DNA from: the human T2T-CHM13v2.0 reference genome, Homo sapiens
Direction: 5' to 3' (one strand)
DNA: 64,000 bases
Assembly: GCF_009914755.1 (NCBI RefSeq)
Contig: NC_060929.1
In this document: in pieces, positions 53,440 to 54,653 of the stretch
How the letters are laid out: every line of letters starts with the position of its first letter
How positions within the stretch are numbered: the first letter of the stretch is position 1
Notes under the pieces: generated by a model
Database searches by the model: none
Told to the model about the DNA's origin: nothing
What the model saw: only the letters and a program-made list of their open reading frames with translations
Translations under genes and position numbers: made by a program

Positions 53440-54653
53440 ATTGGACCAACACTTCACGCAGCTTTCTTCCGAGGACCCCAACGAAGGAGTGATTTGAACC
53501 CAAGTCAAAAGGGTGCCCTACAAGGCTAGTTTGAACAGAACCCCTACCCTGATGTGACTCCCAGAGAACAACTGACCAGAGAAATTGGCACTCCAGAATT
53601 TAGAATACAGATGTGGTTTCGAAACCAGAGAACACAACACCTCAGACAGAGTCTACTGGGGTCTGGATTGGGGTCGATTTCCTGGAATTGCTATCAGGGA
53701 AGAACTGGCTGCACAAACAGGCCTCTCAGAGTCCAGAACTCAGATATGGTTTCATAACCAAAGAGCTCGGCACTGTGGCCAGAGTTGTAGACTTGTGAAT
53801 TCCCTGGCAGAAGGCCCCAAGTCGGAGACCTCACATGACTGTGTGACAAGGCAAGGCAACTTGTGCATGGCCCCTAGCAGTGGGGTCACTTCCCTCCCTC
53901 CAGTTCTTTCAGCAACAACCAGCTCTTCTTCCACCTCACACATGCTTTGGTTCTTGGGTTCCCCCTGGGCTCGGAGTGAGCCAGGCACCAAGGGTCATGA
54001 TGCTCCACCCACCAGGCTGTGCTGGGAGGAGAGATCTCTCCACCTCTTCTGACACTTAGGAGTCACATGTCAACAGGCCCAGCTCTAGGAGGGGCGCTCT
54101 TACATCCTCTGGCTCCTTTCCAGCCCCCACACCAAGGAAGATGCCAGGATGACAAGGACAGAGACACATGGCCTGGCAGTACTGCCCTGTAAGGACTCTA
54201 CACAGCCCCAACCTGGCAATCCTAAGCACCAGTTGCAGGGAACTGGTCAGCAAGACACATCTCACCTTATGCAGTGGTGGCACAAGGGGCCCCAAGGAGT
54301 GATGTCAAATGGCCAGCTGGAGCAGGGGCACTTCAGCAGCCCACAGAGCCTGCACACACCTGGACATCCCTGTGGCAGTAGCGGGCACCACCAGCTGCAG
54401 AGCCATCTCAGCCACTCGAGCAACCGCACAGCTCTCTGCAAAACCCACCCTTTTAGGTCAATGCCTGTCAATTGTATAGTTTCAGAAAAAGACACAAGCC
54501 TGCCTGAATCCAAGTCCACAGGAAAAGGTCCCTCCACCACTTGAACCACCTCTCAGTGAGGAAGAATTTGATGCTCTGCCTGATGTGATGCAGACCTCAC
54601 CAGGGTGTCAGCTTTGGGAGGAGCAAGGCCTCCTTCTCACCTCCACCATCTAG
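53440..54653 (+). pseudogene. Intronless DUX4/DUXC-family double-homeobox pseudogene (DUX4-like; possibly DUX4L51, unverified)
   Basis: HD1 from 53470: [60 protein letters not shown] (stop at 53527-29). HD2 remnant 53675-53773: [33 protein letters not shown]. Mid region GALLHPLAPFQPPHQGRCQDDKD resembles DUX4 [23 protein letters not shown]. C-terminus LLGQCLSIV*FQKKTQACL...LEPPLSEEEFDAL resembles DUX4 LLDELLASPEFLQQAQPLL...LEAPLSEEEYRAL. Stops and frameshifts throughout. Confidence 0.93.

What the first reader, a model, noticed from the sequence alone, without database searches (positions are those of the whole stretch)
53440..54653. DUX pseudogene whose homeodomain 1 looks DUXC-like: possible fossil of the lost ancestor of DUX4
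Seen: one collinear, intronless, CpG-depleted copy covering HD1, part of HD2, the Pro/Gly middle region and the C-terminal domain; the codons around both (I/T)Q|xWF positions are contiguous. Known: DUX4 is an intronless retrogene derived from intron-containing DUXC, which is thought absent from primates; DUXA and DUXB lack this C-terminal domain. Inference: RGP-RR, PSQKGALQ, NQRT-LRQS and LEPPLSEEEF match my recollection of laurasiatherian DUXC better than DUX4 (PSQSEALR, NERSRQLRQH). There is also no GC-rich D4Z4 context. This may be an independent old retrocopy of DUXC or proto-DUX4 rather than a dispersed D4Z4 unit, and would record the ancestral zygotic-genome-activation factor.
Basis: partly seen in the sequence, partly recalled or inferred. 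Interest (0 to 1): 0.85.

Follow-up and report, generated by a model that had tools for sequence, protein, structure and literature searches.

The report
Ancient spliced double-homeobox pseudogene, not D4Z4
This is a dead, very old, intron-less copy of a double-homeobox gene that still shows the activation tail of the DUX4/DUXC kind but does not come from the D4Z4 repeat, so it is a fossil of an older relative of the muscular-dystrophy gene DUX4.

Summary
Window 53436-54617 carries, in order, a lost start codon, homeodomain 1, the last two thirds of homeodomain 2, a middle region and a C-terminal tail. No introns are present and CpG is depleted.

The element is larger than reported: 52755-55443 (2689 bases). 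It has a 5' leader, a 3' UTR ending after AATAAA, and a candidate target-site duplication. It is one of at least 17 dispersed human loci about 60-72% identical to each other, from roughly five independent insertions.

It is a processed copy. It joins exon 1 to exon 2 and both homeobox halves exactly where the intron-bearing genes DUXBLP (10q22.3) and DUXB are split.

It is not a D4Z4 unit. A family DNA profile matches D4Z4 only in the homeoboxes, and an AU test rejects grouping with DUX4 (p 0.0009).

Signature residues and two quick trees put the family with the tail-bearing DUXC/DUX4/Dux group. A bootstrapped tree leaves this unresolved, and a DUXBL-sister position is not rejected (p 0.11).

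A family-type stump lies 40 kb from DUXBLP. The copy itself is non-functional.

The parts
52743..52754 (+). Left copy of the candidate target-site duplication (ATAAATTTGGGG), directly before the insert.
   Evidence: It matches 55444-55455 in 9 of 12 bases and all 3 differences are transitions. The degenerate pattern occurs only at these 2 places in the window. The pattern was derived after the fact.
52755..53435 (+). 5' leader of the retrocopy, truncated at 52755.
   Evidence: Homologous to the chr12 and chrX copies, which run further upstream. It also matches the genomic region upstream of exon 1 of DUXBLP and of DUXB.
53436..53438 (+). Position of the former start codon, now AGG.
   Evidence: Aligned by eye to the ATG of DUXBLP exon 1. 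The chr12 copy keeps M-D-L here.
53457..53465 (+). Approximate exon 1 | exon 2 junction, spliced: the 746-base intron 1 is absent.
   Evidence: One search shows chr10 exon 1 ending before GTAAGT, and exon 2 at 80887125-80886971 between AG and GT. One search shows window 53411-53456 and 53485-53610 matching the two exons.
53470..53649 (+). Homeodomain 1, complete, with an in-frame TAG at 53527-53529. RIQ|MWF is contiguous.
   Evidence: 31 of 60 residues identical to DUX4 HD1. One search gives the stop.
53655..53674 (+). Site of a deletion of about 37 codons (linker plus the first third of homeodomain 2), with a frameshift.
   Evidence: The chr12 copy keeps this stretch.
53675..53791 (+). Last two thirds of homeodomain 2. 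TQ|IWF is contiguous.
   Evidence: 29 of 39 residues identical to DUX4 HD2.
53792..54434 (+). Middle region, equivalent to the body of the last exon of DUXB/DUXBL/DUXC-type genes. It carries several frameshifts and stops at 53844-53846 and 54379-54381.
54435..54617 (+). C-terminal tail. The first block is decayed, with a stop at 54477-54479. The second block (LEPPLSEEEFDAL...) is intact. The ancestral stop position, about 54615-54617, reads TGG here.
54618..55443 (+). 3' UTR with AATAAA at 55426-55431. It ends at ...GTCAAGTTTAA, the end shared with other copies.
55444..55455 (+). Right copy of the candidate target-site duplication (ATAAATCTGAAG). No clear A-tail lies between it and the insert.

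Best explanation
Window 52755-55443 is a dead, 5'-truncated processed pseudogene. An mRNA of an intron-containing double-homeobox gene was spliced, reverse-transcribed and inserted into what is now an intron of CDH6. This happened roughly at the time of the early placental radiation.

The source gene encoded two homeodomains, a DUXB/DUXBL-like middle region and a two-block C-terminal activation tail of the DUXC/DUX4/Dux kind. It was not DUX4 or D4Z4, DUXA or DUXB. I judge it most likely a DUXC-type gene, a close paralogue of DUXBL that the human lineage has since lost.

The same source left about five independent insertions, now at least 17 loci after later duplications. The copy has no function today.

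Shown: anatomy, splicing, decay, family membership and lack of D4Z4 origin. Inferred: the DUXC-type identity of the source, the age and the insertion mechanism.
For: Processed copy:
- It lacks intron 1 and both homeobox introns that are present in DUXBLP and DUXB.
- It ends 12 bases after AATAAA at the same base as 5 other copies with unrelated flanks.
- 5' ends vary between copies.
- It has a candidate 12-base duplication at its ends.

Dead: 4 stops, 8 frameshifts, a 37-codon and an 8-codon deletion, and AGG at the start position.

Old:
- K2P distance of 0.25 from a leave-one-out family consensus.
- Pairwise identity between dispersed copies is 60-72%.
- CpG observed/expected is 0.13.

Not D4Z4:
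- The family profile hits D4Z4 only at profile positions 754-1013, the homeoboxes, with 60 bits.
- The whole-genome DNA search found no 4q35 or 10q26 hit.
- The AU test rejects family+DUX4, lnL difference 34.3, p 0.0009.

DUXC-type:
- The family consensus keeps both tail blocks. DUX4's tail matches the chr16:38.6 Mb copy at E 2.9e-7.
- HD1 has ALQALF and NQR..LRQS as in tail-bearing proteins. DUXBL and DUXB types have (T/I)LQ.WF (one, P0103, has TLQASF), and most have NHR.
- The last exon has GPQGV, where DUXB, DUXBLP and Duxbl-like proteins share a different C.Q.L motif.
- Quick ML trees group the family with the tail-bearing clade, SH-aLRT 95. The value is 91 when the pseudo-proteins are built on DUXB/DUXBL references only.
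- The highest protein identity of the consensus is to P0022, 54% over 321 columns.
Against: - The bootstrapped tree (24 rows, 446 columns, LG+G4) leaves the family in a basal polytomy with DUXBL, DUXB, DUX4 and DUXC-like clades, all under 80.
- The homeodomain-only tree is unresolved.
- The AU test does not reject family + primate DUXBL, p 0.11.
- Human DUXBLP exon 5 keeps a relic of the same tail, so the tail does not separate DUXC from early DUXBL.
- In the tail-region DNA tree the DUXBLP lineage is about as far from the family's centre as the family copies are.
- The leader and exon 1-2 match DUXBLP at DNA level at 68-80%.
- The comparison proteins are unnamed, so 'DUXC' rests on their features, not on labels.
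- No clear poly(A) tail remains.
- The chr12 copy carries at least 2.4 kb more upstream sequence, an unusually long leader for an mRNA.
- The age calibration is recalled, not computed.
Confidence: 0.55

Rival explanations
1. It is a processed pseudogene of DUXBL itself, the intron-bearing gene whose wreck, DUXBLP, lies on the minus strand at 10q22.3. The copy was made when DUXBL still encoded the C-terminal tail.
For: - DNA homology extends to DUXBLP's upstream region, exon 1, exon 2 and exon 5, at 68-80%.
- The exon structure is the same.
- DUXBLP exon 5 keeps a tail relic.
- The AU test does not reject family + primate DUXBL, p 0.11.
- In the tail-region DNA tree DUXBLP is no further from the family's centre than the copies are.
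- Younger copies of DUXBLP exist: chr11 at 97.1% and chr1 at 86.7% identity. So this locus did spawn copies.
Against: - The family lacks the signature residues that primate DUXBLP shares with Duxbl-like and DUXB proteins in HD1 and in the last exon.
- Primate DUXBL forms its own clade without the family, 99 SH-aLRT and 94/88.
- Plus-strand pieces in the same locus are nearer the family consensus than the minus-strand gene is: 73-79% against 70-71%. The first 230 profile positions score 118 bits against 11-17 bits.
Confidence: 0.27
2. The source was already an intron-less retrogene amplified as a tandem array, an older analogue of D4Z4 now lost except for the 10q22.3 plus-strand stump. Units spread by transcription or by DNA duplication.
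For: - On chr10 plus strand the 3' end of one unit (80841198-80842479) is followed 1.3 kb later by 3.6 kb of upstream-leader sequence (80843800-80847427). That stretch is collinear with the chr12 copy.
- The chr12 copy is about 5.2 kb.
- Poly(A) tails are absent at chr12 and chr10.
Against: - All tested copies stop at one base after AATAAA while their 5' ends vary, as expected for reverse transcripts.
- The stump lacks the part that would show whether it had introns.
- No array remains.
Confidence: 0.1
3. It is a decayed, dispersed copy of DUX4/D4Z4, as the gene name DUX4L51 suggests.
For: - The best solved-structure matches are DUX4 chains, which are the only DUX-named proteins among the matches listed.
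- The tail motif is shared with DUX4.
Against: - There is no D4Z4 homology outside the homeoboxes.
- HD1 is only 31 of 60 residues identical to DUX4.
- The tail extends past the DUX4 end, as in non-DUX4 tail-bearing proteins.
- The AU test gives p 0.0009 against grouping with DUX4.
- A T2T survey lists D4Z4-like loci on chromosomes 1, 3, 4, 9, 10, 13, 14, 15, 18, 21, 22 and Y, not on 5 (PMC12963445, passages).
Confidence: 0.02

Closest known systems
DUXC group (intron-containing DUXC and its retrogenes DUX4 and Dux), represented here by unnamed tail-bearing proteins P0022, P0046 and P0047
   Same: - Two homeodomains, a collinear middle region and a two-block C-terminal tail that runs on past ...ALL..L into ..SPG..
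- Shared HD1 signatures ALQALF and NQR..LRQS, and GPQ.V in the last exon.
   Different: - This copy is a dead pseudogene.
- Grouping with this clade has SH-aLRT 95 and 91 in quick trees but under 80 in the bootstrapped tree.
DUXBLP, the human pseudogene orthologue of mouse Duxbl at 10q22.3 (Leidenroth and Hewitt 2010, PMC3004920, passages read)
   Same: - Same exon 1/exon 2 structure and a homologous upstream region.
- 68-80% DNA identity.
- A tail relic in exon 5.
   Different: - DUXBLP has introns.
- It has its own HD1 and last-exon signatures, shared with Duxbl-like and DUXB proteins.
- It forms a clade with P0054 that excludes the family.
DUX4 in the D4Z4 repeat (4q35 and 10q26)
   Same: Intron-less, with two homeodomains and the terminal LSEEE(Y/F)..L motif.
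   Different: - D4Z4 is 73% GC and tandem.
- No DNA homology outside the homeoboxes.
- The tail ends at ...EEL.
- The AU test rejects a common clade.
DUXAP1-10, processed pseudogenes of DUXA (Booth and Holland, as cited in PMC3004920 and PMC2211742)
   Same: The same phenomenon: a DUX gene expressed in the germ line or early embryo leaves many retrocopies.
   Different: The parent is different. The DUXA-like proteins form a 100%-supported clade apart from the family and were used as the outgroup. This family is much older.

Membership tests
Double-homeobox (DUX) family | Two paired-class homeodomains in tandem on one reading strand. | tested here: met
   Pfam Homeodomain at E 6e-9 and 1.9e-8. 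HD1 is complete. HD2 lacks its first third in this copy but is complete in the chr12 copy.
Processed pseudogene (retrocopy) | Parental introns are precisely absent. | tested here: met
   The exon 1/2 junction and both homeobox junctions are contiguous here. They are split by GT...AG introns in DUXBLP and DUXB.
Processed pseudogene (retrocopy) | 3' end at a polyadenylation site, an A-tail and a target-site duplication. | tested here: inconclusive
   The end 12 bases after AATAAA is shared with 5 other copies. There is a candidate duplication matching 9 of 12 bases. No clear A-tail remains.
Processed pseudogene (retrocopy) | Disabling lesions. | tested here: met
   4 stops, 8 frameshifts, 2 deletions and a lost start codon.
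D4Z4 unit / DUX4 copy | Homology to D4Z4 outside the open reading frame, and a GC-rich context. | tested here: not met
   The nhmmer family profile hits D4Z4 only in the homeoboxes. GC is 0.48 against 0.73.
D4Z4 unit / DUX4 copy | Groups with DUX4 in a tree. | tested here: not met
   AU test p 0.0009 against family + DUX4.
DUXC group | Conserved C-terminal domain shared with DUX4 and Dux. | tested here: met
   Both blocks are present in the family consensus. In chr5 the second block is intact and the first is decayed. Pfam holds no model of this domain.
DUXC group | Phylogenetic grouping with DUXC/DUX4/Dux. | tested here: inconclusive
   SH-aLRT 95 and 91 in quick trees. Under 80 in the bootstrapped tree. 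The DUXBL-sister alternative has p 0.11.
DUXC group | Intron-containing parent arranged in a tandem array. | tested here: inconclusive
   Introns are inferred from the spliced junctions. The only hint of an array is the chr10 plus-strand 3' end followed by a leader.
DUXBL | Derived from the gene at 10q22.3 and shares its signature residues. | tested here: not met
   The signature residues differ. DNA identity to the minus-strand gene is 70-71%, against 73-79% for the plus-strand pieces.
DUXBL | Phylogenetic grouping with DUXBL. | tested here: inconclusive
   Not in the primate DUXBL clade, but a sister position is not rejected.
DUXA / DUXB | Groups with DUXA or DUXB. | tested here: not met
   The DUXB clade (90/93) and the DUXA-like outgroup (100/100) exclude the family.

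The most novel reading that the evidence does not exclude
The plus-strand pieces at chr10:80841198-80847428, 40 kb from DUXBLP, are the stump of the lost primate DUXC tandem array. That array would be the parent of this pseudogene family. It would give direct human evidence that DUXC arose at the DUXBL locus. The dispersed copies together would preserve a nearly full-length image of the ancestral tail-bearing zygotic activator from before DUX4 existed.
Probability: 0.25. Interest if true: 0.75.

Novelty: new member of a known kind. Interest (0 to 1): 0.5.

Why it matters
DUXC is held to be absent from primates, and its ancestral location could not be studied for lack of anchor genes (PMC3004920, passages). 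A 2026 survey proposed from sloth data that DUXC arose at the DUXBL locus (PMC13558733, section 15). That survey filtered out decayed copies.

This family of old retrocopies, and the family-type stump beside DUXBLP, are human sequence fossils of an intron-bearing, tail-encoding DUX gene. They could be used in three ways:
- To reconstruct that gene.
- To date its loss.
- To test the locus-of-origin hypothesis in primates.

There is also a practical point. The name DUX4L51 misleads, because the locus is not a D4Z4 derivative and should not count as a D4Z4-like locus in FSHD genomics. The copy itself has no expected function.

Tried and rejected
- The search for homologous proteins with the HD2 piece, longer lengths: 976 candidates, none scored. 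It gave no relatives of this piece.
- Whole-genome protein search with the 57-residue tail: 15 matches at E up to 10. These were the locus itself, 5 chr16 copies, the chr10 plus-strand piece and weak noise. There was no D4Z4 hit.
- Homeodomain-only tree (50 rows, 120 columns): unresolved, and the careful search did not finish.
- A simple DNA-consensus translation was broken by alignment frameshifts. I replaced it with a frameshift-aware aligner of my own.
- chr10:80825001-80835000: no family or DUX match by nhmmer or tblastn.
- chr16:35.72 Mb (L046) looked like a link between the family and DUX4, but it is simply DUX4-type: 356 bits to DUX4.
- No genomes of other mammals were available. Presence or absence at orthologous sites was therefore not tested.
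- Literature searches: 'DUX4L51' gave 0 papers. 'DUXC' with 'processed pseudogene' gave 3 papers; I read passages of only one (PMC3004920) and it does not describe this family. Six other DUX4L names gave 14 papers, seen as a listing only apart from PMC12963445; by title none is an evolutionary study of these loci.
- Structure prediction and complex prediction were not used. They would not bear on a dead pseudogene.

Full report
**1. What is in the window**

Window 53000-55200 was read directly. One frame gives a complete homeodomain 1 with a single in-frame TAG. A second frame gives the last two thirds of homeodomain 2.

Of 4 translated pieces sent to Pfam, 2 matched Homeodomain (E 6e-9 and 1.9e-8). 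The 2 C-terminal pieces matched nothing.

Against solved structures the best matches of both pieces are DUX4 chains. The first piece scores higher on DUX4 HD1 and the second on HD2.

I took the true DUX4 frame from a D4Z4 unit of the same genome (L053). Against it:
- HD1 is 31 of 60 residues identical.
- The HD2 part is 29 of 39 identical.
- A 13-residue terminal motif is 10 of 13 identical.
- The middle region aligns only weakly.

GC rises to 0.43-0.58 between about 52800 and 55200, against 0.30-0.39 in the surrounding sequence from about 51000 to 56600. CpG observed/expected is 0.13, the same as the flanks.

**2. True extent, and a family of copies**

The whole human assembly could be searched. 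The 1214-base finding matched 21 places. None was in the 4q35 or 10q26 arrays. Acrocentric D4Z4-like copies matched only the HD2 stretch.

A copy on chr12 is homologous from window 52755 to 55443 at about 70% identity. Searches with the 5' and 3' parts found 7 and 20 matches.

Together these give at least 17 loci:

| Chromosome | Position (Mb) |
|---|---|
| chr5 | this locus |
| chr12 | 61.58 |
| chrX | 127.39 |
| chr10 | 38.1, 43.46, 80.84 |
| chr16 | 32.6, 33.1, 33.6, 34.3, 38.6 |
| chr7 | 65.16, 65.57 |
| chrY | several |

Shared flanks and higher identities show later duplications:
- The chr10 38.1 and 43.46 copies share flanks.
- The chr16 pair is 90% identical.
- The chr7 pair is 81% identical.
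- chr16 to chr7 is about 72% identical.
- chrY groups with chr7.

About five insertions are therefore independent. Dispersed copies are 60-72% identical to each other.

**3. It is a spliced (processed) copy**

On the chr10 minus strand I read a real exon structure. Exon 1 ends ...AAATG before GTAAGT. A 746-base intron holding an Alu follows. Exon 2 (80887125-80886971) lies between AG and GT and encodes HD1 up to ...RIQ.

This fits the published description of human DUXBLP, which keeps exons 1, 2 and part of 5 (PMC3004920, passages). Human DUXB on chr16 shows the same layout, with introns inside both homeoboxes.

The chr5 copy joins exon 1 to exon 2 and reads RIQMWF and TQIWF without a break.

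All copies whose ends I looked at stop at the same base, 12 bases after AATAAA. After that base their flanks differ. Their 5' ends vary:
- chr5 starts at 52755.
- chrX starts about 105 bases further upstream.
- chr12 starts at least 2.4 kb further upstream.
- The chr16 and chr7 copies start inside HD2.

The 12 bases before the insert and the 12 after it match in 9 positions, and the 3 differences are all transitions. This is a candidate target-site duplication. No clear A-tail remains.

**4. It is dead and old**

Against a tail-bearing reference protein, the copy has 4 in-frame stops, 8 frameshifts, a 37-codon deletion that removes the linker and the start of HD2, and an 8-codon deletion. The start position reads AGG; that alignment is by eye.

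Its K2P distance from a leave-one-out consensus of the other copies is 0.25. Excluding CpG sites changes nothing, because few CpG sites remain in the consensus.

By my recollection of human-lineage neutral divergence (about 0.17-0.2 since the human-mouse ancestor; recalled, not computed), this points to an insertion near or before the boreoeutherian radiation. A consensus built from few copies inflates the figure somewhat.

**5. It is not D4Z4 or DUX4**

A DNA profile built from 8 family copies hits a D4Z4 unit only over the homeoboxes, with 60 bits. It hits DUXBLP pieces with 87 to 540 bits and DUXB's upstream region, exons and last exon with 105 and 269 bits.

An AU test rejects a clade of the family with human DUX4 and its closest representative: lnL difference 34.3, p 0.0009.

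A T2T survey of D4Z4-like loci does not list chromosome 5, 12, 16, 7 or X (PMC12963445, passages).

**6. Which gene was the source?**

One exhaustive search with the DUX4 frame returned mammalian double-homeobox proteins without names. 6453 proteins scored at E up to 0.001, and 150 were listed. All 11 that I scanned against Pfam have two homeodomains. Pfam has no model for the tail.

By their features they fall into types:
- **Tail-bearing, DUXC/DUX4/Dux-like:** P0022, P0046, P0047 and others.
- **Primate-DUXBL type:** P0054, nearly identical to human DUXBLP exon 2 and exon 5.
- **Duxbl-like:** P0074 and P0078.
- **DUXB type:** P0134 and P0149.
- **Intermediate:** P0103.
- **DUXA-like:** used as the outgroup.

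My frameshift-aware aligner shows that chr5 is collinear along whole tail-bearing proteins: 169 of 371, 163 of 373 and 140 of 275 identities. It is also collinear along P0103 (127 of 283) and P0054 (93 of 164).

A family consensus of 440 residues has a start, both homeodomains, the linker, the middle region and both tail blocks.

Signature positions favour the tail-bearing group:
- ALQALF and NQR..LRQS in HD1.
- GPQGV in the last exon, where DUXB, DUXBLP, its chr1 copy and Duxbl-like proteins share another motif.
- A tail that runs on past ...ALL..L into ..SPG.., unlike DUX4.

Trees and tests:
- Quick maximum-likelihood trees place the family inside a clade with the tail-bearing proteins at SH-aLRT 95. 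This clade excludes the DUX4 sub-clade's interior.
- The value is 91 when the family pseudo-proteins were built only on DUXB/DUXBL-type references without the tail. That was a control for reference bias.
- A careful tree with bootstraps (24 rows, 446 columns) collapses the backbone, and the family sits in a basal polytomy.
- The homeodomain-only tree is unresolved.
- The AU test does not reject the family as sister of primate DUXBL, p 0.11.
- Human DUXBLP exon 5 and its chr1 copy keep a relic of both tail blocks. Mouse DUXBL is described as lacking that domain (bioRxiv 10.1101/2022.09.19.508541, passage).

The source was therefore an intron-bearing, tail-encoding gene close to the DUXBL/DUXC split. 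I favour a DUXC-type identity at about 0.55, and early DUXBL at about 0.27.

**7. The 10q22.3 locus**

Besides the minus-strand DUXBLP and a duplicate of its 5' part (80903902-80906812), the plus strand holds two family-type pieces:
- The tail and 3' UTR of one unit, at 80841198-80842479.
- After a further 1.3 kb, 3.6 kb of leader sequence collinear with the chr12 copy, at 80843800-80847427.

These pieces are 73-79% identical to the family consensus, against 70-71% for the minus-strand gene. In the first 230 profile positions they score 118 bits against 11-17 bits.

In a DNA tree of the tail region the plus-strand piece falls with the family. It stays outside the 99-supported DUXBLP clade of chr10 minus, chr11 and chr1.

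This could be the decayed parent, a second gene or array beside DUXBL. That would agree with the proposal that DUXC arose at the DUXBL locus (PMC13558733, section 15). It could also be one more retrocopy.

The 10 kb to the left hold nothing related. The part that would show introns is missing.

**8. Novelty and limits**

I found no paper that describes this family or a DUXC-type origin for any DUX4L locus (searches; passages). Leidenroth and Hewitt state that no DUXC orthologue was found in primates. The 2026 survey kept only genes with two intact homeodomains.

Limits:
- The comparison proteins are unnamed.
- No other mammalian genome was available.
- The age rests on a recalled calibration.

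The copy itself is an ordinary dead pseudogene. Its value is as a fossil.

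Noticed in passing
L035/L036 (chr10:80886971-80890657 minus strand; duplicate 5' part at 80903902-80906812): Human DUXBLP exons 1 and 2 are readable with intact GT/AG borders and an Alu in intron 1. The upstream region and exon 1 are duplicated about 16 kb away.
   Followed up: partly
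L030/L031 (chr10:80841198-80842479 and 80843800-80847428, plus strand): Family-type tail plus 3' UTR, followed 1.3 kb later by 3.6 kb of leader sequence collinear with the chr12 copy. This may be the stump of the parent gene or array beside DUXBLP.
   Followed up: partly
L009 (chr11:108.19 Mb) and L007 (chr1:54.46 Mb): Copies of DUXBLP exon 5 at 97.1% and 86.7% identity. They are much younger than the chr5 family, so the DUXBL locus kept spawning copies in primates. The chr1 copy abuts L1 sequence.
   Followed up: partly
chr10 minus-strand exon 5 (80882410-80883283) and the chr1 copy: Human DUXBLP keeps a recognisable relic of the two-block C-terminal tail, although mouse DUXBL is described as lacking that domain.
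   Followed up: partly
L046 (chr16:35717529-35720654): A DUX4-type tail with an open frame of 144 residues and 51% identity to the DUX4 tail. It is a D4Z4-type copy and not part of this family.
   Followed up: partly
P0060 (unnamed protein): A gene model with a KRAB box fused to a double homeobox. Its linker and post-HD2 region resemble the family, and it groups near the family in the trees. It may be a retrocopy swallowed by a zinc-finger gene model in another mammal.
   Followed up: no
window 52320-52341 and 55908-55944: (CA)n and (GT)n microsatellites lie on either side of the insert, a few hundred bases away.
   Followed up: no
L056/L057 (chr16:81742076-81750057): The upstream region of human DUXB, including the stretch before its TATA box, is alignable at DNA level with the leader of the retrocopy family. 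The source transcripts therefore began upstream of the equivalent promoter.
   Followed up: partly
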